This document shows positions 11,989 to 38,189 of a stretch of DNA of 64,000 bases, piece by piece. The notes beneath the pieces were generated by a model, which did no database searches, had not been told where the DNA came from, and worked only from the letters and a program-made list of their open reading frames with translations. Both the position numbers and the translations under genes were made by a program. The DNA lies in the IMG/VR virus record IMGVR_UViG_3300024255_000004. The stretch is one strand, 5' to 3'. The DNA comes from a virus. Position 1 is the stretch's first letter; each line of letters opens with the position of its first letter.

Positions 11989-14900
11989 ATGGCAGAGAAA
12001 ACTGATTTAAATATATCACCCTATTATGACGACTACAGTGAGAGTAAAAACTTTCAAAAAGTTTTATTCCGTGCAAGTAGACCACTACAAGCAAGAGAAT
12101 TAACTCAATCACAATCAATCCTTCAAAATCAAATCCAAAGATTTGGTAATCATATATTTGAAGAAGGGTCAATCGTCACTGGTGCTCAAACTGATATTGA
12201 TATGGAACTTTACTATGTTAAAGTAAAGTCTTCCAATCCAAATATCAATGGTGATACTTCAGTTGAAACATATAGAAAATCTTTCCACGGAAAAATAATA
12301 CAAGGTAAAACAACAGGTGTTGTTGGTAAAGTAGTCACATCAACTGCAGAAACAACAGACGACAAACTTACATTGTTTGTCAGATATCAATCACAAGGAA
12401 CCAACTCAAGTAATTCATTTACTTTCTCAGCAGGAGAAGAACTACAAGAAGTCACTGTAGACGAAAATGGTGCAATTTCAGCCAATGCATCAAACAATAA
12501 TGAATTTACAGTAGATGCATTAACAGTTAGTTCAAATCCAACTGGAAGAGGTTCAATTGCAAATATCTCTGAAGGTGTTCTCTTTATTAGAGGATTCTTT
12601 GTAAAGGTTCCAGCACAAGAACTTATTTTAGAAAAATATTCAGGTGCTCCTTCATACAGAGTTGGTATAACAGTCACAGAGAATTTAATATCTTCTTCTG
12701 AAGACTCAAGTTTATTAGATAACTCACAAGGAACAACAAACGAAAATGCAGCTGGTGCTGATAGACTTAAATTCAATTTAGTCTTAAGTAAGTATACTCT
12801 TACTACAACTACTGATACAGATTTCGTAGAGTTAGTTAGAGTTAATAAAGGTTTAATCGAACTCAAAGTAGATAAACCAATATACAATGAAATAGAACAC
12901 ACAATGGCACGAAGAACTTTCGATGCAAATGGTGATTTCGTTGTAAGACAATTCGTTCCAACTTTAAAAGAACACTTAGACGACTCAACTAATGGTGGTG
13001 TATACACTTCTACAAATGGTGGAGTTGAGAGTAATTTTGTTATGCAAGTATCGCCAGGTAAAGCATATGTCAAAGGATATGAAATTGATAAAATAGGAAC
13101 AACGTCAATTCCACTGAAAAAAGCAAGAACAGCAATATCATTAGATAATGCAAACACTCCAATAAGATTGGGGAACAAATTAAGAGTCACAAATATTCAT
13201 TCATTACCCGAGTTTGGTAATGAGGGTGGTATAGATACATTAGACCCATATCAATTAACAGAATTGTGGGATACTGCACCAGCAGTCGCAGGAGTAAAAG
13301 GAACTGGAAATCTTATAGGATATTCTAGAATTAGAAACATTGACGAACACACAACGGGTGTTTACAATTTATATCTATTTGATATTAAAATGTTTACTAA
13401 GGTCACATTTTCTGCACTATCCAGTGGACAAGTTGCAGTTAGTGATAAGTTAACAGACACTACAACAGGTGCAACAGGTATTATTGCAGAGATTGATTTA
13501 CCAAGTAAGTCAGTATTATTACATGACGTAGTAGGAACATTCCAAGTTTCCAGTGGTATTGTAAGTGAAGGTATCACTGCAACAACAATAGTCAATGGAA
13601 TTACTGCAGTTAGAACATACAATATTGATAGAGTTAGAGGTGTTTCTCAAGATTCAAATAACTCAAACAGAGAAGTGTTTACTGCACATACAGTTTTAGA
13701 TTCCGCATTTAATTTAACTGGAACTGTTATATATGATACTACAACTGGTATGACTGGTTTTGGAACTAAGTTTACTACAGAACTTAAAGAAGGAGACGTT
13801 GTTCATAACCCTGCTTCAGGTCAAGATTTAGTTATTAGTTCAGTTGCTAGTGACATATCTGCAACACTTGTTGGAGCCTCAACAGCTGCATATCAAGGTG
13901 GAGTTTCTAGATTACGTGCAACACTTTATGACCAAAACCAAACTGCAAACATATTTGCATGGCCAAGGAACTGGGTTAAGACACATACTGGTGAATCAAT
14001 TCAAATACGAAGACAATTCACAGCTCAGTTAAGTGGTGGTTCATTCTCAGTAGATTCAGGTTCAAACGGAACCTTTGCACCAGTGAACAAAGATAACTTT
14101 ACAATTGCAGTGATTGAAGCTGCTGGTGGTGGAAGTTTATCAGCAGGAGATTTAATTGACCCCGATTCAATCTCAAATTCAGTGACTTCTTCAGGTTCAG
14201 GTCAACAAATAACATTCAGTGGTATTAATGCAAATAACGATACTGCAGTTGTAAGAGTATCTTATACAATTACAATAACAGACCCCGTTAACAGAGATAA
14301 GACATTAAGAGCTGGAAGAATGTTGAAGGTCACAGGTTCAAAAACATCTTCATATATGTATGGAACTGCATACGACCATAAAGAAATTACATTGGGTGTT
14401 CCTGATGCATACAAAATTCGTGGAATTTATGAAGGAGTTAGTGGTGATGCATTACCACCTTCATTTATTACAACAACTACAACTGGAACCTTCGTTGTTA
14501 ATGAAGAAGTTGTAGGACAAACTTCAGATGCACGTGCAAACATTGTCACCTTTAGTGGAGACACCAATGTATCATATTTTTATTACACAAATAACAATGT
14601 ATTTACAGATAATGAAAATATTATTGGTCAGACTTCAGGTGCAGTAGGAACAATTGCATCAGTCACAGCAGGTTCACCGAACATAACAAACAGATACTTC
14701 TTTGACAATGGTCAGAGAGATGGTTTTTACGATTTATCAAAATTAGTTTTAAAGCCAGGTGAACCAGCACCAAACAATAAAATCCTAATAATATTTGATT
14801 ACTTCCAATCTTCAGGTGGTGGAGACTACTTTGATGTGGAATCATATTCCTCAATACCTTACAAAGATATACCAGTCTATTCACCAAATAAAATAGACTT

Positions 14901-17900
14901 AGGTGGATTAGAACCTGATGGAACTTTTGAATTATCAGATTCAGTTGATTTCAGACCACAAGTTGGTCAGATAATAGGGTCTTCTACCTTTGCAACAAAT
15001 GTGAGTCAAGACCCAACTGATGCAAGTAGTGTTGTAGACTTATCAGATGTATCAGGTGTAGGTGCAAAATACGCACCTTTTGCCTATGCAACTGGACGTT
15101 CTTTTGAAAGTAGTAGAACAGGTATTGCAACCACTTTTGCAAGTGCAACAGACACACCAGTATCAGGTTCAAGTGTTGTGGGTGATATATCATTCTATGT
15201 TGGTAGAATAGATAAAGTATTCTTACATAAATCAGGAATGTTCCAAGTATCAACTGGAAATCCTTCAATATCACCAACTAAACCTAAAGCTGTTGACGAT
15301 GCAATCGAAATGTTTGAATTGTCAATACCACCTTATACTAATAAGTTAAACCAAATCAGAGTAAGGTCACAAGACCATAGACGATATACTATGAAAGATA
15401 TCGGAAAGATTAACAACAGGGTCACTAACTTAGAAAGAATCACTTCACTATCATTACTTGAGAAAGATACTCAGTCAAAACAGATTTTAGATGCAGACGG
15501 ATTCGACAGATATAAGTCAGGTTTCTTAGTAGATAACTTTAGAGGTCATAAGATTGGTGACGTAAATCACCCCGACTATAAGTGTTCTATCGATACTAAA
15601 ATGGGTATGTTAAGACCTCAGTCTTATCAACAGTTCTTTGATATATCTTTAAATGTTGCTGCTTCAGCAAACTATCAAAAAACTGGAGACTTAATAACAC
15701 TTCCATATAGTGAAATTGCATACGTAGACCAAAGTAAAGCATCTCGTTCAATCAATGTTAACCCATACCATGTGTTTGCATTCGTAGGTAATGTCAAGTT
15801 GACACCCGAAACAGATATATGGCAAGATACAGAACAACTACCCGAAGTTAGAATCAACAGAGAGGGTAATTTTGATGCAGTATTATCAGATAACACAAAT
15901 GCACTTGGAACAGTGTGGAACTCATGGCAGACCACATGGGCAGGAGAACCTAGTGTAGTGTCTTCAGAAGTTCAAGCAACTTCAAATGGTTCATGGTCAG
16001 GAGACCCAGCACAAGGTGGTGAATGGGTTGCTGGTTTAGAAATTACTAGAGAAATTACAGAGACACCTGAAATTCAAACAAGAACAGGTGTGACAACAAG
16101 TGTCGTAGAAGACTTTGTAGAAACAAGAAACGATAGAATCGTGTCAGTATCAATTGTTCCTTTCATGCGTGCAAGGACTATTGAGATAGATGCAACCAAC
16201 TTAAAGCCTGGTTCAAATCATTACTTCTTCTTTGATAATCTAGACGTAAACAAATTTGTTAGACCTCATAGTGGAACTTATTCACAAGACGGAGGAACAA
16301 CAGTTTCTTCAGGTTGTAAAACAGACGGAAACGGAAGATTACGTGCATTCTTTGAATTACCAAACAATTCAATTCACAAATTCCCAACAGGACAAAGAGA
16401 ATTAAGAATAACATCTTCTGCATACAACTTAAGTAATCCTGCCTCAAATGGTAGTGCAGTTTATCAAGCACAAGGATTATTACAGTCTTCACAAACTGAA
16501 GTCGTCTCTACAAGAAATGGTAGAGTGATTATGGAAAGATTACAAGGTTCAAGGTCAATGTCTAGAAGGGGTGAGAATTTAAACTCTGCACCTTTTGATA
16601 ATACTGCACCAGCACTACCTGATGCACCAGCAGATATAGTGAGAGTTAATGACCCACCAGCCGACCAAGTGCCTGCACCAGCACCCGACCCAACTCCAGC
16701 GGTTCCCGACCCATTACCACCTATTCCAGTTGTGTCACCAATAGTGTTTGACCCACCAGTAGTGTCGTGGCCAGACCCACCAAGAGAACTTCCAATCATT
16801 ATTGATGATGCAAGAGACAGGTTTGTAGGTGATAGAGTTGGAAGAGGTTCAAGATTAGACAGAGGTTGGGGAGACCCACTTGCACAATCATTCTTATGTG
16901 AAGCAGACGGAGGTATGTTCTTATCTTCAGTAGATACATTCTTTGAAACTAAAGATGCTTCTATGCCTGTTTCAGTAGAAGTTAGAACTATGGTTAATGG
17001 ATATCCTGGCCAAACAGTATTACCATTCTCTACAGTCACACACAACCCTTCTGCAGTTAATACTTCTTCAGACGGGTCAGTTGCAACAACATTTACTTTT
17101 GATTCACCAGTATACGTAGAAGAAAACGTAGAGTATGCATTAGTTGTATATTCAAATTCAAATGAATACAATATGTTCATTTCAAGAATGGGTGAGAAAG
17201 ACCTTGCATCAGGACAAACAATCGCAGGTCAACCATACGCTGGTTCACTATTCTTATCACAAAATGCTTCTACATGGACTGCAGAACAAACTGATGATAT
17301 GAAAATCAAAATCAAAACTTGTAAATTTGATACTTCAAAAATATCAAACTTAAAATTTGAAAATGATGCATTACCTTCATCAAAATTACAAACAAATCCA
17401 ATAGAAACATATAGTGGACAAAATTATGTTAAAGTATATAACTACTTACATGGAATGTATGATTCAGTAAGTAATAAAGATAATGTTGTAATGTCAGGTT
17501 TAACTGGTGATAAGACTGGAAGTGTTTTAACTTTAGGTAGTAATACAGTCAATCAGACTCCAACAGACGGAACATATCTCAACAAATCGATTAGTTCAGG
17601 TTCACTTTCAGGGGTTGATGCAACACTTGACATAGTAGTTTCAAGTGGTGCAGTGTCTAGTGTGTTGATTAGCAATCCAGGCGGTGGATATCTTTCAACA
17701 GAGACCCTTGTTATATCAAGTTTTGATGGACAAGGAACAAATATATCAGTAGAAGTTGGAACAGTTGGAGAGACAATTGGTGGTATTCCAGTTGGGTCAT
17801 TGAATGCAACATTCACACAAATTGCAAATAGAGGGATTGATTCATATACAGTAATACCCGATATATCTGCATACGATTTAAAATCAGGATATACTGCATT

Positions 17901-18702
17901 AGTAGATACAGTTGGTGGTGGAAGTGTTGCAGTGTCAACAAGAAACTATTACTTTGATGCAATTCACACAATGATTCCTTCTACTGCAGTTAAAAACACT
18001 CAGATTCTTGCAAGTGTTTTAACAACTCCAATGAGTTCACCCGAAGGATATGTAAACGGAACTTCATATATAAGAAACACAACAAGTAATTTTATAACAT
18101 TGAATGATAATGCATTCTTTGGTTCACCAAGTGTGGTTGCAAGTTCGATAAATGAGACAAGTGAAATGTCTTCTTCAAAATCATTTCAGTGTCAACTACA
18201 ACTTGCATCATTTAACCAAAATATTTCACCAGTAATTGATGTGGGAACAGTTGGTTGTATTGGTATTGCAAACAGATTAAATGACATTGACAGTAGTTCA
18301 GATGTCCCTACAGGAACCACATACATTGATTCTAACGAACCCGAAGGGGATTCTAATGCAATGGTATATGTGACACGTAAAGTGAACCTTAAAACACCTG
18401 CTACAAGTATTAAAGTAATTGCAGATTTCTTTAGACCACCTACTACAGATTTAAAAGTCATGTATAAGATAATTAAAAATGACGAAGACATACCATTAGA
18501 CGATATTGGATTTGAATATTTCAATACTAGTGGTGTTCCCGATACTTCTGTTGAGAACGATGGTAGAAACTTTAAAGAATACGAATTTACTGCAAACGAC
18601 TTACCCGAATTCAGTGCCTTTGCAGTGAAAATTGTGGGTCAAGGAACAAACACTTCCGTAGTCCCATTAGTGACTGCACTTAGGTGTATGGCACTTGCAT
18701 AA
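11989..18702 (+). CDS. Very large virion structural protein (VrlC/DUF4815-like)
   Basis: LNISPYYDDY...FQKVLFR..RPLQARELTQ.QSILQNQ; RRYTMKDIG..; DPLAQSF; follows gp8 as in marine T4-like phages. Confidence 0.8.
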   Translation: MAEKTDLNISPYYDDYSESKNFQKVLFRASRPLQARELTQSQSILQNQIQRFGNHIFEEGSIVTGAQTDIDMELYYVKVKSSNPNINGDTSVETYRKSFHGKIIQGKTTGVVGKVVTSTAETTDDKLTLFVRYQSQGTNSSNSFTFSAGEELQEVTVDENGAISANASNNNEFTVDALTVSSNPTGRGSIANISEGVLFIRGFFVKVPAQELILEKYSGAPSYRVGITVTENLISSSEDSSLLDNSQGTTNENAAGADRLKFNLVLSKYTLTTTTDTDFVELVRVNKGLIELKVDKPIYNEIEHTMARRTFDANGDFVVRQFVPTLKEHLDDSTNGGVYTSTNGGVESNFVMQVSPGKAYVKGYEIDKIGTTSIPLKKARTAISLDNANTPIRLGNKLRVTNIHSLPEFGNEGGIDTLDPYQLTELWDTAPAVAGVKGTGNLIGYSRIRNIDEHTTGVYNLYLFDIKMFTKVTFSALSSGQVAVSDKLTDTTTGATGIIAEIDLPSKSVLLHDVVGTFQVSSGIVSEGITATTIVNGITAVRTYNIDRVRGVSQDSNNSNREVFTAHTVLDSAFNLTGTVIYDTTTGMTGFGTKFTTELKEGDVVHNPASGQDLVISSVASDISATLVGASTAAYQGGVSRLRATLYDQNQTANIFAWPRNWVKTHTGESIQIRRQFTAQLSGGSFSVDSGSNGTFAPVNKDNFTIAVIEAAGGGSLSAGDLIDPDSISNSVTSSGSGQQITFSGINANNDTAVVRVSYTITITDPVNRDKTLRAGRMLKVTGSKTSSYMYGTAYDHKEITLGVPDAYKIRGIYEGVSGDALPPSFITTTTTGTFVVNEEVVGQTSDARANIVTFSGDTNVSYFYYTNNNVFTDNENIIGQTSGAVGTIASVTAGSPNITNRYFFDNGQRDGFYDLSKLVLKPGEPAPNNKILIIFDYFQSSGGGDYFDVESYSSIPYKDIPVYSPNKIDLGGLEPDGTFELSDSVDFRPQVGQIIGSSTFATNVSQDPTDASSVVDLSDVSGVGAKYAPFAYATGRSFESSRTGIATTFASATDTPVSGSSVVGDISFYVGRIDKVFLHKSGMFQVSTGNPSISPTKPKAVDDAIEMFELSIPPYTNKLNQIRVRSQDHRRYTMKDIGKINNRVTNLERITSLSLLEKDTQSKQILDADGFDRYKSGFLVDNFRGHKIGDVNHPDYKCSIDTKMGMLRPQSYQQFFDISLNVAASANYQKTGDLITLPYSEIAYVDQSKASRSINVNPYHVFAFVGNVKLTPETDIWQDTEQLPEVRINREGNFDAVLSDNTNALGTVWNSWQTTWAGEPSVVSSEVQATSNGSWSGDPAQGGEWVAGLEITREITETPEIQTRTGVTTSVVEDFVETRNDRIVSVSIVPFMRARTIEIDATNLKPGSNHYFFFDNLDVNKFVRPHSGTYSQDGGTTVSSGCKTDGNGRLRAFFELPNNSIHKFPTGQRELRITSSAYNLSNPASNGSAVYQAQGLLQSSQTEVVSTRNGRVIMERLQGSRSMSRRGENLNSAPFDNTAPALPDAPADIVRVNDPPADQVPAPAPDPTPAVPDPLPPIPVVSPIVFDPPVVSWPDPPRELPIIIDDARDRFVGDRVGRGSRLDRGWGDPLAQSFLCEADGGMFLSSVDTFFETKDASMPVSVEVRTMVNGYPGQTVLPFSTVTHNPSAVNTSSDGSVATTFTFDSPVYVEENVEYALVVYSNSNEYNMFISRMGEKDLASGQTIAGQPYAGSLFLSQNASTWTAEQTDDMKIKIKTCKFDTSKISNLKFENDALPSSKLQTNPIETYSGQNYVKVYNYLHGMYDSVSNKDNVVMSGLTGDKTGSVLTLGSNTVNQTPTDGTYLNKSISSGSLSGVDATLDIVVSSGAVSSVLISNPGGGYLSTETLVISSFDGQGTNISVEVGTVGETIGGIPVGSLNATFTQIANRGIDSYTVIPDISAYDLKSGYTALVDTVGGGSVAVSTRNYYFDAIHTMIPSTAVKNTQILASVLTTPMSSPEGYVNGTSYIRNTTSNFITLNDNAFFGSPSVVASSINETSEMSSSKSFQCQLQLASFNQNISPVIDVGTVGCIGIANRLNDIDSSSDVPTGTTYIDSNEPEGDSNAMVYVTRKVNLKTPATSIKVIADFFRPPTTDLKVMYKIIKNDEDIPLDDIGFEYFNTSGVPDTSVENDGRNFKEYEFTANDLPEFSAFAVKIVGQGTNTSVVPLVTALRCMALA

Positions 18703-18912: not shown

Positions 18913-20112
18913 ATGGCAAAAACAGTAGACCAATTTAGCACTATTGAAAACTTTAGGACGAAGTATAATGAACTTGCAGTTGATGTTGGTGAGTTATCGG
19001 GTTTAAGAACCGAATCAACTACAAATGTGGTTGATGCACTTAACAGCCTTGAAGATAAGTCATTCTTTTTTCAAGAATTCCAATACGTTGCAACAGCAAA
19101 TCAAACAGTATTTACGGGTAATGATTCAGACAATAACTCACTTGTTTTTAGAAGTGGAAGAATTCAAGTATTCAAAAATACAAACCTTTTAATATTAGGA
19201 ACAGACTATTCAATCGGTGGTGTAGACGGAAACAAACATACAGAGATTACACTTAACACAGGTGCAAGTGTTGGTGATGTTGTATCAATTTTTGCATACA
19301 CTGGTTCATATATTGGTAGTTCTATTGGTGCTGGTGGTGGAGAAGCTGGTCAGTTCACTGAAACAGCAATAAACACAATTTACAATAAAAATGCAAATGG
19401 TGTTATCCTAAATGGTTCTTCAACTGGAAGAACTACTTCTTTATCAACAAGTGCAAAAATAGAATTTGATTCTAATGGAACTGGTGTATATTCACAAGAA
19501 GATATTACACTTGCAAATGGTAAGAATTTTGTTGGGAATCTAACTGGAGATGTCACTGGAAATGTGACTGGAAATGTTTCGGGAACTTCAGGTAGTTCAG
19601 GAACAGTTTCAAGTATATCTACACATTCTGCAAGTGGTTTATCAGACATTAATTATACCACAACCCCAACAAATGGTCAAATTTTAGTATGGGATAATGC
19701 AAATGGATATTGGGAACCAGCAACTAACCAAGATATGTCATCATTAAGTGGTGATTCAGACGATATTACTGAAGGAACAACAAATCTGTTTTCAACTACA
19801 GAAAGAATTCAAGATGCAGCTGCATCAATGATTACAAGTGCAACACATAGTAATATATCAGTTGCATATGATGATGGATTAGGAACACTTACCTTTACTG
19901 CTGGTGCAACATATTCAGATTCAGATGCAAGAGGTGCCCTTCAAGGTGGTGCTGGACTTAATTACAACTCAACAACTGGTGAGTTCGGTGCAAATACCTC
20001 TAATGGAATTGAGATAAATAGTGATAGTATAGAATTAGATTACGAAATAGTTAATTCAGCACCTTCAACTGCAAGTGGAACCTCAGTGGGACACTTGTGG
20101 TTTGTTATATAA
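18913..20112 (+). CDS. Fibre/appendage protein, probable anchor of the 20122 hairpin protein
   Basis: N-terminal FRTKYNEL coiled coil, GNVTG repeats, DDITEGTTNL and YNSTTG repeats; ends SAPS..GTSVGHLWFVI. Confidence 0.65.
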   Translation: MAKTVDQFSTIENFRTKYNELAVDVGELSGLRTESTTNVVDALNSLEDKSFFFQEFQYVATANQTVFTGNDSDNNSLVFRSGRIQVFKNTNLLILGTDYSIGGVDGNKHTEITLNTGASVGDVVSIFAYTGSYIGSSIGAGGGEAGQFTETAINTIYNKNANGVILNGSSTGRTTSLSTSAKIEFDSNGTGVYSQEDITLANGKNFVGNLTGDVTGNVTGNVSGTSGSSGTVSSISTHSASGLSDINYTTTPTNGQILVWDNANGYWEPATNQDMSSLSGDSDDITEGTTNLFSTTERIQDAAASMITSATHSNISVAYDDGLGTLTFTAGATYSDSDARGALQGGAGLNYNSTTGEFGANTSNGIEINSDSIELDYEIVNSAPSTASGTSVGHLWFVI

Positions 20113-20121
20113 TGAGATGAA

Positions 20122-21747
20122 ATGTCAGACGAAATATACATTAATATAGGAACAACCTTACAACAACCATATCAAGGTCAAGTGCCTGCCAATGCTCAAA
20201 GTAATGAAGTAAAGCAAGCAGTTAGACAGATATCAGTAAATGCTCAGACAACATATAGAAGTCCGAGTCAGACTCCTACTACATACAGAAATCCAGTTAA
20301 TGGTCAGTTATTGGTGCAAGATGCACGACAACCTAGTCCGTTCACTTATCAGAACCAACAACAGAATCCATTTCAAAGTCCGTTTACATATCAACAGCCT
20401 GCGATATATAATCATCAAAATCAAAGAAGTAGTCCGTTTATCGACAATGCGAGACAACCTGTAGATGCATTTCAACAACCAACAGCTGCATATCGAAGTC
20501 CTATAGCTGCCTCTAGACAACCAGTAGCTGCAGTTCAACAACCAGTAGCTGCTGTTCAAACACCTATTGGTGCAAGTAGACAACCAGTTCCAGTAGCTGA
20601 AAGTAGACAACCAGTTCCAGTAGCTGCAACACAGAATCCGTTTACATTCCGAAGTTCTTATCGAAGTCCATTTACATATCAAGATGTCACCCCTTATGCA
20701 ATTTCGGCTCAATCTGCTAATATTCAAGCTGCTCGACAACCAGCAATTTATTATTTTCAGGTATATCAAGCATTTAATGACCCTGATGAATTCCCTAGAC
20801 CTCCTACAGGAATGCCTGGTGAGGTAGCGGGAAACATGCAAATGGGTGGGTTTCAAGTCACAAGAACTCCAGTTATAAATCAAGTTCAAGGTGCATATGC
20901 GTCTACGCAAACCCCTGTTGCAGCTTATCCAGCAAACAGACAGACCACCAATTATTATTTTAATCCATATAATGGTGAAGACTACCCGTATCAATTACCT
21001 GCGACATATCAAGCTGGTGCATATCGGTCTCCATCGATTGTATTTATCGCACAAAATCCAGTCTCTGCTCAACAGACGTTGCAACAACCAGTTCCAGCAA
21101 GACAACCAGTAGCTGCATTTACATATCAGAGTCCTGTAGCTGCGTTTACATATCAGAGTCCTATAGCTGCATATAGACAACCAACAGCTGCATATCGAAG
21201 TCCTATAGCTGCATATCAGAGTCCTATAGCTGCATCTCAACAACCAGTGGCTGCATTTACAACACCTATAGGTGCATTCCAGTCACCATTTACGTTTCAG
21301 AATCAACAACAGGTAAACGACCCTGTTAGTGCAAATCGACAAACAACGATTCAAGCAAGGGGAGACGGACAAGCGTCAAGTCCTTATATTGCAAATGCAC
21401 AACAACAACTTACAATTCAGTATAGGTCTCCATTTACATATCAAAATCCTGTAAATAAACAAGTTGCAACACAAAATATTGTTCAACAACCTTCAATATA
21501 TCAAGCACCTTATCAGGTTTCCTATCAACATAGGTCTCCTTTCATTTATCAGACACCATACTCAACAACTAGAAGTATCGGCCCTATTGCAAAAGTGAAA
21601 GCAGTATATGTGAATAAAGATGGTGCTCAAGCAACACCCGAAAAACTAGAGGAAATATATGTTAATAACCAAAATACTGCAGAGAAAATACACCAAACAG
21701 TTCCAACTGCAAGATTCTCTAAACACCCTTCAAACACTCAACAATAA
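20122..21747 (+). CDS. Gln/Pro/Tyr-rich mirror-symmetric repeat protein (single-chain hairpin filament)
   Basis: Pro-delimited repeats on both sides of a central region are mirror-ordered (Pro i+j=502); C-terminal KVKAVYVN...IYVN domain. Confidence 0.7.
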   Translation: MSDEIYINIGTTLQQPYQGQVPANAQSNEVKQAVRQISVNAQTTYRSPSQTPTTYRNPVNGQLLVQDARQPSPFTYQNQQQNPFQSPFTYQQPAIYNHQNQRSSPFIDNARQPVDAFQQPTAAYRSPIAASRQPVAAVQQPVAAVQTPIGASRQPVPVAESRQPVPVAATQNPFTFRSSYRSPFTYQDVTPYAISAQSANIQAARQPAIYYFQVYQAFNDPDEFPRPPTGMPGEVAGNMQMGGFQVTRTPVINQVQGAYASTQTPVAAYPANRQTTNYYFNPYNGEDYPYQLPATYQAGAYRSPSIVFIAQNPVSAQQTLQQPVPARQPVAAFTYQSPVAAFTYQSPIAAYRQPTAAYRSPIAAYQSPIAASQQPVAAFTTPIGAFQSPFTFQNQQQVNDPVSANRQTTIQARGDGQASSPYIANAQQQLTIQYRSPFTYQNPVNKQVATQNIVQQPSIYQAPYQVSYQHRSPFIYQTPYSTTRSIGPIAKVKAVYVNKDGAQATPEKLEEIYVNNQNTAEKIHQTVPTARFSKHPSNTQQ

Positions 21748-21765: not shown

Positions 21766-22098
21766 ATGGCTATTATTGCAAATATATTTATCGACCAAGG
21801 AACAGATTTTAGTATCACTGTAGATGTCACGGACACTAGTGGTGGTGCATTGAATATGAGTGGTTATTCTGCAGCTGCACAAATAAGAAAAACTTATGGT
21901 TCTTCAACTGTAAGTTCAAGTTTTACAACGTCTATTGCAGAAGCATCAGGTCAAGTCACGTTATCACTTACTGATACTCAAACAACTGCTTTGGAATCGG
22001 GTAGATATGTTTATGATTTAAATGTGACAAGTGGTGGTGGACAGACTACTCGTGTGGTAGAAGGTCAAGCTATTGTCACACCAGGCGTCACGAGGTAA
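21766..22098 (+). CDS. Virion structural protein (Ig-like adaptor)
   Basis: ANIFIDQG.DF...AQIRK.Y.S...L.LT..QT..LE.GRYVYD...RVVEG...VTPGVTR family of T4-like phages. Confidence 0.7.
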   Translation: MAIIANIFIDQGTDFSITVDVTDTSGGALNMSGYSAAAQIRKTYGSSTVSSSFTTSIAEASGQVTLSLTDTQTTALESGRYVYDLNVTSGGGQTTRVVEGQAIVTPGVTR

Positions 22099-30073: not shown

Positions 30074-30775
30074 ATGGCAACAGGTTATAGACAATATCCC
30101 TATATATCAAATGCTCAGCAACCTTTTACGTTTCAGAGTCCATTTACGTATAGTGCAAGGTATCCAGCAAGTGCTCAACAACCATTTACGTATCAGAATC
30201 CATTTACGTATAATGCAAGATATCCAGCAAATGCTCAGCAACCTTTTACGTATCAGAGTCCGTTCACATATCGTGTGCCTTATATTGCTAATGCAAGACA
30301 ACCATACACATATAGAAACCCATTCACATATAGGGTTCCATATATTGCTAATGCTAGACAACCTATAATTTATTCACATAGGTCTCCATTTACGTATAGA
30401 AATCCTGTTTCTGCACAAGAACCTAATATTAGGAATGCACAAACACCATTCACATATAGAAACCCAGTTAATGGTCAAGAACCTAACATTAGGAATGCAC
30501 AAACACCATTCACATATAGAAATCCAGTTAATGGTCAAGAACCTAATATTAGGAATGCACAGACTCCATTTACGTATACTAATCAACAGCCTTCTACATA
30601 TCAGAATAGACAGCCTTCTACTTATCAACATAGAAGTCCGTCAATTTATATTAACCAACAGCCGTCAACGTATACTAATCAACAACCTTCTACATATGCA
30701 AGACAGGGACAAACACCCGAAGCTAGATGGGACGGAGTTGTATCACAGCAATGGCCTGCAACCCCAATTAGTTAA
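30074..30775 (+). CDS. Gln/Pro/Tyr-rich repeat protein A (mirror partner of 30786)
   Basis: GGAG RBS and CATAAATA at 30036; 29 Pro-delimited segments in aa 10-215. Confidence 0.75.
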   Translation: MATGYRQYPYISNAQQPFTFQSPFTYSARYPASAQQPFTYQNPFTYNARYPANAQQPFTYQSPFTYRVPYIANARQPYTYRNPFTYRVPYIANARQPIIYSHRSPFTYRNPVSAQEPNIRNAQTPFTYRNPVNGQEPNIRNAQTPFTYRNPVNGQEPNIRNAQTPFTYTNQQPSTYQNRQPSTYQHRSPSIYINQQPSTYTNQQPSTYARQGQTPEARWDGVVSQQWPATPIS

Positions 30776-30785
30776 GGAATAAGAT

Positions 30786-31655
30786 ATGGCAACAGGAAAT
30801 CAAAAAGTAAAAACACCTTCAGGTTGGAATTCAACTCAAGGTGCATGGGTCAAAACTGGTTCTTCTTCATGGAGTGCAGTTGACCAAATTTATGTTAAGA
30901 CACCTTCGGGGTGGAATAATGCGTCAGGACAAGAATTAACTCAAATTCCTTATCCTTATATTGCAAATGCACAAACACCTTATATTGCAAATGCACAAAC
31001 ACCTTATACTGCGAATGCACAGAATCCTTCTATTAGGAATGCACAGACACCTTATATTGCGAATGCACAGACAACTTATCAAGCGAATGCTAGACAACCT
31101 TCTACTTATCAACATAGAAGTCCGTTCACTTATCAGAACCCTAGTAATGCTAGACAACCTTCTACATACCAATATAGAAGTCCGTTCACTTATCAGAACC
31201 CTAGTAATGCAAGACAACCTTCTACATACCAATATAGGTCTCCATTTACATACAGAAGTCCTGTAAATGCTCAACAACCTAACCAAAGGAATAAACAGTC
31301 TCCATTTACATATGATGCTAGGTATCCTGCGAATGGTCAGAGTCCTAGTAATGGACAGACTCCATTTACATATAATGCAAGGTATCCTGCGAATATAAGA
31401 CAACCAGTTCCAGCAAGAAACCCATTTACATATAGGGTTCCATATATTGCTAGTGCTAGACAACCAGTCCCAGCAAGGAATCCGTTTTCATATCGTGTGC
31501 CTTATATTGCTAATGCTAGACAACCAGTTCCAGCAAGGAATCCGTTCACATATAACCATAGACAGCCTGGAGTTTACTTCTTCCAAACTGGTGGTGGTGG
31601 AGGTGGTGGCTTCCCAACACCCGATGGGCCAGGAGATGCGCCAGGAATCTACTAA
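30786..31655 (+). CDS. Gln/Pro/Tyr-rich repeat protein B (mirror partner of 30074)
   Basis: N-terminal VKT..GW motif x3; 29 segments in aa 56-261; Gly/Pro-rich tail. Confidence 0.75.
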   Translation: MATGNQKVKTPSGWNSTQGAWVKTGSSSWSAVDQIYVKTPSGWNNASGQELTQIPYPYIANAQTPYIANAQTPYTANAQNPSIRNAQTPYIANAQTTYQANARQPSTYQHRSPFTYQNPSNARQPSTYQYRSPFTYQNPSNARQPSTYQYRSPFTYRSPVNAQQPNQRNKQSPFTYDARYPANGQSPSNGQTPFTYNARYPANIRQPVPARNPFTYRVPYIASARQPVPARNPFSYRVPYIANARQPVPARNPFTYNHRQPGVYFFQTGGGGGGGFPTPDGPGDAPGIY

Positions 31656-36527: not shown

Positions 36528-37343
36528 ATGGCAGAACCAAATTCAAAAGCAACCTTTAAAGAGTATATCAAGAGAAAACTTGGAGCTCCAGTTTTAGAAA
36601 TCAATGTGGACGATGACCAATTTGATGACAGAATGGACGAGGCACTTCAATATTTCCGTGAATATCATTACGATGGTTCTATAAAAACATACCTTAAACA
36701 CCAAATTACACAACAAGAGATTGATTCATTTAAAACGAATGAAACTCACAATGCAGCGACAACTGGAACACATGCAATTTCAGGTCAGACGTTTGGTGAA
36801 GGTCAAAACTACATTACACTACCCGAACATGTGTTAAGTGTATTGCAGATATTCCCTTTCAATTCGGGTCAGACTTCAAGTATGTTTGATATTCAATACC
36901 AATTAAGACTCAATGACTTGTATGATTTAACTTCAACCAGTGTTTTATATTATTCACAAGTTCAATCACACTTATCACTCTTAAATGATATCTTAGTGGG
37001 TCAGATACCTATAAGATATAATATGCACTCTAACAGACTCTACATGGACTACAGTGCAAGTAAATTAAGTGCTGGGGAGTATATCATTATTGAATGTTAT
37101 AGAAAATTAGACCCTACAGACATGACTGATATCTATAATGATATGTGGTTGAAAAAATATGCAACTGCATTAGTTAAGTATCAATGGGGTGAAAACCTAT
37201 CCAAGTTCCAAGGTATTGCACTTCCAGGCGGGGTGACACTCGATGGTTCTGCAATGAAACAAGAAGCACAAGAAGAGATTACAAGATTAGAAGAAGAGTC
37301 TAGACTGAACTTTGAAATGCCAGTCATGGACTTAATGGGGTAA
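36528..37343 (+). CDS. gp13: Neck protein gp13
   Basis: LGAPVLEINVDDDQ..DR.DEALQYF..YHYDG; WLKKYATALVK.QWG.NL.KF.G..LPGGV; late promoter at 36499-36506. Confidence 0.92.
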   Translation: MAEPNSKATFKEYIKRKLGAPVLEINVDDDQFDDRMDEALQYFREYHYDGSIKTYLKHQITQQEIDSFKTNETHNAATTGTHAISGQTFGEGQNYITLPEHVLSVLQIFPFNSGQTSSMFDIQYQLRLNDLYDLTSTSVLYYSQVQSHLSLLNDILVGQIPIRYNMHSNRLYMDYSASKLSAGEYIIIECYRKLDPTDMTDIYNDMWLKKYATALVKYQWGENLSKFQGIALPGGVTLDGSAMKQEAQEEITRLEEESRLNFEMPVMDLMG

Positions 37344-37346
37344 TAA

Positions 37347-38189
37347 ATGCCTACAAACGTATTTTTTAACCATGCAGTATCGACTGAACAACACCTCTAT
37401 GAGGATTTAGTTGTTGAGTCATTACGAATATATGGTCACGAAACATATTATCTACCAAGAGAAATTGTAGAGGAAGACACTATACTTGGTGAAGACGTGC
37501 AGTCAACATTCGGTGATGCATATTCTGTAGAAATGTATTTAGAAAATTCAGAAGGTTTTGAAGGAGAAGGAGACCTCATGTCTAAGTTTGGTGTCCAAGT
37601 AAGAGACCAAGCAACATTTATCATATCACTCAGAAGTTGGGAAAGATTTATATCATTAGACTCAAACCTTGCAACTTCAATGAGACCTAACGAAGGAGAT
37701 TTACTTTATTTCCCTCTCAGTGGTTCAATGTTTGAAATCAAATTCGTAGAACATGAGAATCCATTCTATCAAGTCGGAAAACTATTTGTATTTAAATTAC
37801 AATGTGAGTTGTTCGAATACAGTGGAGAAGATTTCGATACTGGTTCATATGCAGACTTAATAGAATTAGACCAAGCATATTCAATAGGATTAACAATGAA
37901 TGGGGAGAATGCCTATTCTATTGGTGAGAACATAACTAAGAACGGAGTTGTTGTTGGTGAGGTTCAGACTTCACTGGGTAATGCAACAACAATTATTCAT
38001 AACACTGCAACACTTACAGTTGGAGATACACTTGTTGGTGTAGATTCGGGTGTATCAGATACAATTGCAGCTATCAATGACGTATTGACTATGAGTAATG
38101 ATGGTTCTGCACAAAATAAAGACTTTGAAGACAAAGCAGATAACTACTTAGACTTCTCAGAAACAAACCCATTTGGTGAGGTCACATAA
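37347..38189 (+). CDS. gp14: Neck protein gp14
   Basis: EQ.L.EDLV.ES..IYG...YYLPR; RPNEGDL.YFP; FEIKFVEHE.PFYQ.GK; DFSE.NPFG. Confidence 0.92.
   Translation: MPTNVFFNHAVSTEQHLYEDLVVESLRIYGHETYYLPREIVEEDTILGEDVQSTFGDAYSVEMYLENSEGFEGEGDLMSKFGVQVRDQATFIISLRSWERFISLDSNLATSMRPNEGDLLYFPLSGSMFEIKFVEHENPFYQVGKLFVFKLQCELFEYSGEDFDTGSYADLIELDQAYSIGLTMNGENAYSIGENITKNGVVVGEVQTSLGNATTIIHNTATLTVGDTLVGVDSGVSDTIAAINDVLTMSNDGSAQNKDFEDKADNYLDFSETNPFGEVT

What the first reader, a model, noticed from the sequence alone, without database searches (positions are those of the whole stretch)
20122..21747. Single-chain version of the same code: a 541-aa protein hairpin
SEEN: nine successive repeat-delimiting prolines of the N-arm (113,120,127,134,141,148,155,164,173) mirror those of the C-arm (389,382,375,368,361,354,347,338,329), all with i+j=502. 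Aromatic-opposite-small pairs hold in that register (Y76/A426, Y90/A412, A110/F392, F176/A326, Y186/A316). They continue after a one-residue slip at i+j=501 (P22/P479, A25/Y476, A41/Y460, P58/P443, G61/Y440). Partner words match those of the A/B pair (VNGQ with FTYQNP, VPARxP with FTF, VSAQ with FTY). A 7-residue unit (xxA-Y/F/S/V-xxP) absent from A/B is self-complementary under the same rule. INFERENCE: a ~170-residue-long stem with both termini at the base, and an independent confirmation of the pairing rule.
Basis: partly seen in the sequence, partly recalled or inferred. Interest (0 to 1): 0.88.

Follow-up and report, generated by a model that had tools for sequence, protein, structure and literature searches.

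The report
Fold-back phage fibre with complementary arms
A 541-residue protein in the host-recognition region of an uncultured marine T4-like phage has two repeat arms that match each other back to front, and relatives change both arms together or split them into two genes, so it most likely zips into a long thin stalk with both ends at the base and a variable knob at the tip.

Summary
ORF 20122-21747 (541 aa, Q/A/P/T/Y-rich) has no Pfam, PHROG or PDB match. Its N arm mirrors its C arm.

- **Registers.** The same anchor-relative register recurs in about 24 relatives.
- **Pairing code.** A pair-preference matrix learnt only from two-chain relatives picks 502 for residues 65-175. It gives a mirror alignment of 51 bits, against 22±2 for shuffles and 15 for the direct control.
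- **Indels.** Among 67 close variants, both large N-arm changes coincide with equal C-arm changes. A 9-mer swap keeps the pairs.
- **Counter-evidence.** Four variants have a deletion in one arm only. Each sits on a single 2-3 kb contig.
- **Split forms.** Most relatives carry two adjacent genes in this slot. These pair antiparallel without gaps for up to about 320 residues.
- **Structure.** AlphaFold2 is low-confidence but draws an antiparallel β-ribbon.

Best reading: a fold-back stalk about 60 nm long in the phage's host-recognition cluster. It works like the T4 gp37 needle or the streptococcal AgI/II stalk but is a member of neither. Unresolved: cis versus trans pairing, oligomer state, exact register, presence in the virion. 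This scan found the same family earlier on other DNA (e1-5784399).

The parts
20122..21747 (+). Whole gene: 541-aa fold-back fibre protein (P0001), stop codon included
   Evidence: ORF, translation. No Pfam or PHROG family and no PDB sequence match. 100% identical copies occur in public metagenomes.
20122..20166 (+). N-terminal base strand, residues 1-15 (MSDEIYINIGTTLQQ). It is conserved across single-chain and split forms. In register 501 it lies opposite 'KVKAVYVN' (residues 491-498).
   Evidence: Invariant columns M1 I5 Y6 I7 N8 G10 Q14 Q15. The same motif starts ORF1 of the split loci.
20167..20679 (+). N arm (outgoing strand), residues 16-186. Pro-punctuated units include six 7-mers (114-155) and two 9-mers (156-173).
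   Evidence: Segmentation. Mirror alignment path runs from 16 to 186. Register 502 is best for 65-175.
20680..21066 (+). Tip (turn) domain, residues 187-315. It is non-repetitive and is the only part with moderate AF2 confidence (about 262-308). It varies between subfamilies.
   Evidence: pLDDT 58-76 in residue blocks 261-300, with β strands; homologous only to the nearest single-chain groups, not to split ORF1 C-domains.
21067..21579 (+). C arm (returning strand), residues 316-486. Two 9-mers (330-347) and six 7-mers (348-389) lie in mirrored order to the N arm.
   Evidence: ORF2 of the split relatives corresponds to this arm plus the base domain.
21580..21744 (+). C-terminal base domain, residues 487-541 (GPIAKVKAVYVN...EEIYVNN...EKIHQTVP). 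It is the most conserved part of the family and is the presumed docking module.
   Evidence: Invariant columns A490 K491 V492 K493 N498 K508 H524 P528 K534. Many database hits cover only this part. AF2 predicts short strands here.

Best explanation
P0001 is a fibrous protein of the phage's host-recognition cluster that folds back on itself.

- The N arm (about residues 1-186) and the C arm (about residues 500-316) run antiparallel and pair unit against unit.
- The N-terminal strand and the conserved 55-aa C-terminal domain therefore sit together at the base.
- The variable domain of about 125 aa (residues 187-315) sits at the far tip.

The stem is most likely an extended, period-2 (β-type) two-stranded ribbon per chain, about 60 nm long if fully extended. 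Prolines of both strands sit at matched positions. Specific residue pairs are preferred across the strands: G-Y, A-Y, F-Q, I-R, Q-T. Any odd-length unit (7 or 9 residues) has to be matched by an odd unit opposite it to keep the two strands in phase.

Stem length is tuned in evolution by adding or removing matched units in both arms. The same architecture also exists as two separate chains: ORF1 carries the N arm and the tip, and ORF2 carries the C arm and the base.

Shown: mirror complementarity, its conservation, the co-variation of the arms, and the split forms. Inferred: physical pairing, β conformation, base-docking and tip-binding roles, and presence in the virion. The oligomer state is unknown. 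A trimer forming a six-stranded tube, as in the T4 gp37 needle, is a guess.
For: 1. **Mirror alignment.** With a pair matrix trained only on two-chain proteins it scores 51.1. The direct control scores 14.6 and unit shuffles score 22.3±2.2. Other single-chain relatives score 68-160 against nulls of 31-51.
2. **Conserved register.** The anchor-relative register (offset +1, which equals 501 here) is the top register in about 24 relatives, two-chain forms included.
3. **Close variants.**
   - The order of units stays mirrored: 7x5,9,9 in both arms (P0015); 7x6,9 in both (P0017); 7x5,9,7,7 in both (P0018); 7x4,9,7,7 in both (P0019).
   - P0011, P0012 and P0014 swap an SRQPVP-type and an FTYQSP-type 9-mer between the strands.
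   - On a tree built from the flanks, both large N-arm changes fall on branches that carry an equal C-arm change (-7/-7 twice). 63 of 67 sequences keep N minus C within ±1 of the mode.
4. **Arm lengths.** They correlate across the family (r=0.84). Neither correlates with the length of the middle part.
5. **Split loci.** ORF1/ORF2 mirror scores are 98-210, against nulls of 35-83 and direct controls of 14-23. The paths are gap-free over 317-323 residues (L039, L045) and end at residue 4 of ORF2, opposite the end of ORF1's arm.
6. **Even spacing.** Inter-Pro spacings are all even in most subfamilies (72/72, 50/50, 45/45, 38/38, 37/37). Odd units occur only in the P0001 group and sit at mirrored positions.
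7. **AF2.** The P0035 model has strands 13-62, 65-80, 374-389 and 392-441, all with i+j=454. The P0001 model is mirror-symmetric about 499.
8. **Context.** The gene lies between VrlC and gp13/gp14 among fibre genes. This region is the host recognition cluster of pelagimyophages (PMC7029224).
Against: - There is no direct structural evidence. AF2 confidence is low (mean pLDDT 35.8 and 42.7). Its registers (499 and 454) differ by 2 from the sequence-derived ones (501 and 456).
- The 7-mer arrays are modelled as coil.
- Four variants change only the C arm: P0196 and P0198 by -21, P0205 and P0016 by -9. If they are real and functional, strict matching is not required.
- The P0024 and P0026 subfamilies give only weak mirror scores.
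- No virion proteomics or cultured relative exists. The base domain is absent from 50,697 GenBank phage records.
- A two-stranded ribbon 60-100 nm long is without precedent and would probably need oligomerisation, which was not tested.
Confidence: 0.7

Rival explanations
1. The arms pair, but between chains. The N arm of one copy zips with the C arm of another copy (antiparallel or domain-swapped oligomer), so the protein is not a single-chain hairpin.
For: Every comparative signal (i+j constant, matched indels) is equally produced by pairing in trans. Phage fibres are usually oligomers. In a trimeric tube each strand would also touch a neighbour's strand.
Against: The two-gene relatives show that one N arm with its tip, plus one C arm with its base, is a complete unit with both termini at one end. 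Fusing them through the tip domain gives the cis hairpin without any extra assumption. A simple antiparallel dimer would place the tip domains mid-rod and create two bases.
Confidence: 0.12
2. The two arms do not touch each other. Each runs, in opposite directions, along a third periodic partner, for example the upstream GHLWFVI-ending fibre protein. Matched units then reflect matching to that partner.
For: The length of the upstream fibre gene tracks arm length across loci: about 400 aa for arms of about 200, about 600 for 263-286, and 824-847 for 341 (r=0.83). Gene order is strictly conserved.
Against: - Close variants change arm length by 7-9 residues while the upstream gene stays at 399 aa.
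- The strong, specific cross-arm residue preferences (G-Y +2.7, I-R +2.2, F-Q +2.0 bits) and the strand swap are what direct contact predicts.
- The length correlation rests on only 3-4 independent clades.
Confidence: 0.08
3. It is a low-complexity, largely disordered Q/P-rich linker or bristle. The mirror pattern would be a by-product of repeat periodicity and shared history, with no structural meaning.
For: AF2 gives pLDDT below 50 for 472 of 541 residues. Pro-Pro counts at 502 alone do not exceed unit shuffles. Composition is prion-like, with 83 Q, 61 P and 38 Y.
Against: - Mirror beats direct in 40 of 41 homologs.
- Code-based mirror scores lie about 13 sd above shuffles.
- Indels are matched and a swap keeps the pairs.
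- Split pairs show gap-free complementarity over 320 residues.
- The strict even-spacing rule cannot arise from drift in disordered sequence.
- There is no DNA palindrome to generate the pattern.
Confidence: 0.04

Closest known systems
Two-gene forms of the same family in related viral contigs (e.g. L042 6001-7281 + 7290-8198; L045; L039), and the A/B pair of this window (30074-30775, 30786-31655)
   Same: - Same N-terminal motif (MSDEIYINIG..QQPYQGQ) and same C-terminal base domain in the split family.
- Same genomic slot, between the GHLWFVI fibre gene and a conserved 110-aa gene.
- Same Pro-punctuated units and the same cross-strand preferences.
- Same anchor-relative register.
- A and B show 29 Pro-Pro pairs on one antidiagonal.
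   Different: - P0001 is one chain, with the arms joined through a small tip domain of about 125 aa. The split forms carry larger, unrelated tip domains (150-200 aa) at the C-terminus of ORF1.
- P0001's group alone uses odd 7- and 9-residue units.
- A and B lack the family's terminal domains and carry a different docking-like domain at B's N-terminus.
Bacteriophage T4 long tail fibre protein gp37, distal 'needle' (domains D10/D11)
   Same: - A phage receptor-binding fibre in which the chain runs out to the tip and comes back. D10 is built from residues 811-881 plus 1010-1026, and D11 from 882-1009, with the receptor-binding tip in the middle of the sequence (PMC6957217).
- Both lie in the fibre module of a T4-like phage.
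   Different: - No sequence similarity.
- The gp37 needle is about 15 nm long, trimeric, and held by seven His-coordinated iron ions.
- P0001 has 4 His and no HxH repeats. Its stem would be about four times longer, and its oligomer state is unknown.
Streptococcal antigen I/II family adhesins (SpaP/P1, BspA)
   Same: - One chain folds back so that an N-side repeat region (A) and a C-side repeat region (P) intertwine into a stalk over 50 nm long.
- The stalk presents a variable domain at the apex.
- The N- and C-terminal regions lock together at the base, and tyrosines interlock across the two arms (PMC7732690).
   Different: - AgI/II pairs an α-helix with a polyproline II helix.
- Here both arms carry Pro every 6-10 residues and have period-2 patterns, which fits β and not α.
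- No homology, no LPXTG anchor, and phage rather than bacterial cell wall.

Membership tests
Fold-back/two-chain 'MSDEIYINIG ... KVKAVYVN-EKIHQxVP' fibre family (unnamed; uncultured marine myophages) | Conserved N-terminal motif and C-terminal base domain | tested here: met
   Full-length homologs have E values from 1e-293 to 1e-24. A profile search finds 165 clusters, and most match only the N-terminal or only the C-terminal part.
Fold-back/two-chain 'MSDEIYINIG ... KVKAVYVN-EKIHQxVP' fibre family (unnamed; uncultured marine myophages) | Mirror-complementary Pro-punctuated arms in the conserved register (Pro16 + Arg of TTRxIGP + 1) | tested here: met
   Offset +1 equals 501 in P0001. Code-based mirror alignment scores 51.1 against a null of 22.3±2.2.
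Fold-back/two-chain 'MSDEIYINIG ... KVKAVYVN-EKIHQxVP' fibre family (unnamed; uncultured marine myophages) | Genomic slot between the GHLWFV[IV]-ending fibre gene and the conserved 110-aa gene | tested here: met
   In the window: 18913-20112 upstream and 21766-22098 downstream. The same order holds in L042 and other loci.
T4 gp37-type needle domain | Sequence or profile similarity to gp37 or gp12 distal domains | tested here: not met
   No Pfam, PHROG or PDB sequence hit. Foldseek with the AF2 model found nothing at E<=0.001.
T4 gp37-type needle domain | Repeated His-x-His iron-binding motifs along the stem | tested here: not met
   There are only 4 His in 541 residues, and none lies in an HxH repeat.
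T4 gp37-type needle domain | Chain reverses at the receptor-binding tip, and the termini of the module lie together | tested here: inconclusive
   Inferred from mirror complementarity, split forms and low-confidence AF2 strand pairing. It has not been observed.
T4 gp37-type needle domain | Homotrimer | not testable with these tools
Antigen I/II adhesin stalk | Ala-rich α-helical A repeats paired with Pro-rich PPII P repeats; LPXTG anchor | tested here: not met
   No Pfam match. Both arms carry Pro every 6-10 residues, which excludes a long α-helix. No LPXTG is present in the translation.
Cementoin / trappin transglutaminase-substrate repeats (PF10511) | Match above the gathering score | tested here: not met
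   P0001 has no hit. Only neighbour A (P0002) scores 30.8 bits against a cut-off of 27, on its PVNGQEP repeats. This is treated as compositional.

The most novel reading that the evidence does not exclude
This is a previously undescribed fibre architecture. An uninterrupted antiparallel two-stranded β-zipper of 60-100 nm would have its register set by a readable residue-pair code: Pro opposite Pro, with G/A-Y, F-Q, I-R and Q-T pairs. Evolution would lengthen, shorten, swap between strands, and split or fuse it into one or two genes at will. That would amount to a natural, programmable protein 'duplex' used by abundant SAR11-type myophages to hold a receptor-binding knob at a set distance.
Probability: 0.35. 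Interest if true: 0.88.

Novelty: new variant of a known kind. Interest (0 to 1): 0.76.

Why it matters
- **A candidate new fibre design.** If the stem is a long Pro-punctuated β-zipper with matched units, it adds a new solution to how phages build thin, length-tunable receptor-binding fibres.
- **A rare evolutionary signal.** It would be a case where protein strand pairing can be read from sequence the way RNA helices are, through compensatory indels and strand swaps.
- **Ecology.** The family sits in the host-recognition cluster of uncultured marine T4-like phages related to pelagimyophages. No receptor-binding protein has been characterised in these phages. The gene is found nearly unchanged in seawater metagenomes from many studies between 2016 and 2024.
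- **Protein design.** The pair preferences could seed the design of heterodimeric β-ribbon connectors.
- **Easy to test.** The protein is small enough to express, and the prediction is simple: a rod of about 60 nm with a knob.

Tried and rejected
- **AF2 on P0001** with a 40-sequence alignment: mean pLDDT 35.8. **AF2 on relative P0035**: 42.7. Only the strand topology was used, not the registers.
- **Foldseek against PDB** with the P0035 model: nothing at E<=0.001. The weak rows are cystine-knot cytokines with long β-fingers and are not meaningful.
- **Complex prediction** (N arm against C arm) was not available.
- **ESM Atlas**: the sequence is present, with no model and no usable neighbour.
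- **megablast and tblastn against 50,697 phage records**: no match for the locus, the whole protein or the base domain. HTVC008M has no homolog.
- **Register 495.** I first preferred i+j=495 because it has the most Pro-Pro pairs (14). I rejected it as a one-unit echo. Strong relatives show the same echo 6 below their true register, and anchors and the trained matrix favour 501 and 502. The gapped alignment still picks 495 for residues 16-61 in P0001 and 501-type in P0015, so the outer register stays ambiguous.
- **Aromatic/small counts** cannot fix the register. In even-period relatives they are higher at shift -2 than at the Pro-Pro register.
- **DNA-level palindrome** as the source of the mirror: none found.
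- **Read laying.** All runs were contigs. RNA-library contigs from two studies hold a 93-95% relative, but transcription is not shown.
- **Tip-domain homology to split ORF1 C-domains**: none detected.

Full report
**What is there**

ORF 20122-21747 (+) encodes 541 residues. The protein has 83 Gln, 67 Ala, 61 Pro, 38 Tyr and only 4 His. It has no Pfam or PHROG family, no PDB relative by sequence and no match in 50,697 GenBank phage records.

All genes in the window lie on the + strand, and the window is a T4-like structural module.
- Upstream are gp5-, gp6-, gp7- and gp8-like baseplate genes and a 2237-aa VrlC-like gene.
- Downstream are gp13-, gp14-, gp15-, gp17-, gp18- and gp20-like genes.
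- The gp8-like protein is only 36-39% identical to those of Pelagibacter phage HTVC008M and the cyanomyoviruses. HTVC008M shares the gene order.

The stretch between VrlC and gp13/gp14 is what Zaragoza-Solas et al. call the 'host recognition cluster' of pelagimyophages and cyanomyophages (PMC7029224). The gene sits there, 10 bases after a fibre-like gene that ends in GHLWFVI. A conserved 110-aa gene follows it.

**Checking the observation**

Cutting the protein at prolines gives 7,7,7,7,7,7,9,9 after Pro113 in the N arm and 9,9,7,7,7,7,7,7 before Pro389 in the C arm.

The Pro-Pro count alone is not convincing.
- Register 502 has 10 pairs, and unit shuffles reach 12.
- Register 495, one unit away, has 14.
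- Two arrays of equal period always give such echoes.

I therefore used tests that do not rest on periodicity.
- The best mirror diagonal equals or beats the best direct diagonal in 40 of 41 full-length homologs.
- The gene contains no inverted DNA repeats, so the mirror is a property of the protein.
- I trained a cross-strand pair matrix only on two-chain proteins (A/B and six split pairs; 1467 pairs). The enriched pairs are G-Y +2.7, P-P +2.5, I-R +2.2, F-Q +2.0 and A-Y +1.6 bits.
  - Scoring P0001 with it picks 502 for residues 65-112 (+9.2; next best -33) and for 113-175 (+9.1; next best -31).
  - A gapped mirror alignment scores 51.1 and runs from 16/479 to 186/316. The direct control scores 14.6 and unit shuffles score 22.3±2.2.
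- Relative to two conserved anchors (Pro16, and the Arg of TTRxIGP), the top register is offset +1 in about 24 relatives with strong signal. The 495 register is the same 6-residue echo that those relatives show as a runner-up.

The gapped alignment still prefers 495 for residues 16-61 in P0001, and 501-type in P0015.

The aromatic-opposite-small rule is a real enrichment. It cannot fix the register, because neighbouring even shifts do as well or better.

**Co-variation of the arms**

The database holds many full-length homologs of 445-543 aa. In the closest group the termini are almost invariant, and the repeat arrays vary. Whatever the change, the order of units stays mirrored:

| Variant | Unit order in both arms |
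|---|---|
| P0015 | 7x5,9,9 |
| P0017 | 7x6,9 |
| P0018 | 7x5,9,7,7 |
| P0019 | 7x4,9,7,7 |

P0011, P0012 and P0014 exchange an SRQPVP-type and an FTYQSP-type 9-mer between the strands. The exchange leaves complementary words opposite each other.

Of 67 distinct sequences in this group, 63 keep the arm-length difference within ±1 of the mode. On a tree built from the non-repeat flanks (120 branches):
- both large N-arm changes fall on branches with an equal C-arm change (-7/-7 twice), ancestral to clades of 2 and 12 sequences;
- four C-arm-only deletions (-21 twice, -9 twice) are terminal singletons. Each is known from one contig of 2.2-3.1 kb.

Public contigs of this gene break inside both repeat arrays, so assembly collapse is a plausible cause of those four. 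That is an inference, and they remain the main counter-evidence.

Across the whole family the arm lengths correlate (r=0.84), and neither correlates with the length of the middle part.

**Split forms**

In about half of 70 IMG/VR loci the same slot holds two genes.
- ORF1 has the family's N-terminal motif, an N arm and a globular C-terminal domain.
- ORF2 starts with an arm and ends with the family's base domain.

Profile searching of 1.84 billion representatives finds 165 clusters. Only seven are full-length single chains, and most match the N-terminal or C-terminal part alone.

ORF1 and ORF2 are mirror partners.
- They show 17-24 Pro-Pro pairs on one antidiagonal, against at most 14 in shuffles and 13-15 for the direct control.
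- Code-based scores are 98-210, against nulls of 35-83.
- In L039 and L045 the path is a single gap-free antidiagonal over 317-323 residues. It ends at ORF2 residue 4, opposite the end of ORF1's arm.

Three subfamilies, with arms of about 200, 270 and 340 residues, all obey this. A unit made of base, stem and tip therefore exists as two chains. P0001 is the same unit joined through the tip.

**What kind of stem**

In most subfamilies every inter-Pro spacing in the arms is even: 72/72, 50/50, 45/45, 38/38, 37/37, and 31/31 in B. Pair statistics vanish at odd shifts. That is a strict two-residue periodicity over hundreds of residues, as in an extended β strand. One face carries F/Y opposite A/G. 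The other face carries P, T, Q and R.

Only P0001's group has odd units (7 and 9). They lie at mirrored positions, which a period-2 duplex needs in order to stay in phase.

AF2 is unsure but draws this topology.
- In P0035, strands 13-62, 65-80, 374-389 and 392-441 all satisfy i+j=454 (pLDDT about 45-64).
- In P0001, the scattered strands and bridges of residues 18-64 mirror those of 435-481 about 499.
- Both registers are two residues off the sequence-derived ones, so the exact register is open.
- The tip (about residues 262-308) is the only moderately confident part. It is homologous only among the nearest groups.

**Most likely mechanism**

This is a fold-back stalk. At about 3.3 Å per residue the roughly 185-residue arms would give about 60 nm. 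That rise is general knowledge of β strands, not a measurement here.

- The N-terminal strand (EIYINI) falls opposite KVKAVYV of the C-terminal domain in register 501, which closes the base.
- The variable central domain is presented at the far end. This fits a host-recognition role in this gene cluster.
- Length is adjusted by matched unit changes.

Physical contact, β structure, the docking partner, the oligomer state and presence in the virion are all inferred.

**Rivals**

- Pairing in trans gives the same signals. It is less economical given the split forms.
- Both arms could track a third partner. This is suggested by the upstream fibre gene, whose length follows arm length (r=0.83, but only 3-4 clades). 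It is disfavoured by arm changes that occur without change upstream and by the specific cross-arm pair preferences.
- Disorder with a coincidental mirror is contradicted by nearly every test above.

**Comparison with what is known**

- It works like the T4 gp37 needle, where the chain reverses at the receptor-binding tip (PMC6957217).
- It works like the AgI/II adhesin stalk, where two repeat regions of one chain intertwine for over 50 nm, a variable domain sits at the apex and the termini lock at the base (PMC7732690).
- It is a member of neither. It has no homology to either, no HxH iron sites, no α-helical arm and no LPXTG.

Its true relatives are unnamed proteins of uncultured marine phages. 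An earlier follow-up in this scan reached a similar reading for a 491-aa relative in another genome. My tests were run independently of it.

**Limits**

- There are too few sequences for residue-level coupling analysis.
- All read evidence is contig-based.

Noticed in passing
window 30074-30775 and 30786-31655: Proteins A (233 aa) and B (289 aa) are mirror partners. 29 of A's 32 prolines face a proline of B on one antidiagonal (i+j=270), against 19 for the best direct offset. The inter-Pro spacings of one are the reverse of the other.
   Followed up: partly
L042 6001-7281 + 7290-8198; also L030, L032-L036, L038-L041, L045-L050, L052-L059: About half of the related viral contigs carry the family as two adjacent genes: N arm plus tip domain, then C arm plus base domain. 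Only 7 of 165 50%-identity clusters are single-chain.
   Followed up: yes
window 18913-20112 and the upstream genes of L007-L076: The upstream fibre-like gene always ends in GHLWFV[IV]. Its length follows the arm length of the fold-back or split pair: about 400 aa for arms of about 200, about 600 for 263-286, and 824-847 for 341 (r=0.83 over 54 loci, about 3-4 independent clades). The two may be parts of one fibre.
   Followed up: partly
arms of L045, L032, L030, P0035, P0045, and A/B (window 30074-31655): Inter-proline spacings are all even numbers over hundreds of residues (for example 72 of 72 in L045). Only the P0001 group has odd 7- and 9-residue units.
   Followed up: yes
window 30074-30775: Protein A scores above Pfam's gathering threshold for Cementoin (PF10511, 30.8 bits against 27) on its PVNGQEP-type repeats. 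These are the transglutaminase-substrate repeats of trappins. The match is probably compositional, but a Gln-based cross-linking role was not examined.
   Followed up: no
window 21766-22098: A conserved 110-aa gene directly downstream matches phrog_1084 and phrog_3304 ('L-shaped tail fiber protein assembly', E=6e-25). It keeps this position in single-chain and split loci and is a candidate assembly factor for the stalk.
   Followed up: no
window 11989-18702 to 36528-38189: The window spans the whole region between a VrlC-like 2237-aa gene and gp13/gp14-like neck genes. This is the 'host recognition cluster' described for pelagimyophages. The nearest cultured relatives (HTVC008M, cyanomyoviruses) are only 36-39% identical in gp8.
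   Followed up: partly
window 20475-20510 and 21183-21206: In public short-read assemblies from independent studies, the contigs that hold this gene at 99% or more break inside both repeat arrays. Contigs in two RNA-seq libraries hold a 93-95% relative with a diverged tip (20694-20778).
   Followed up: partly
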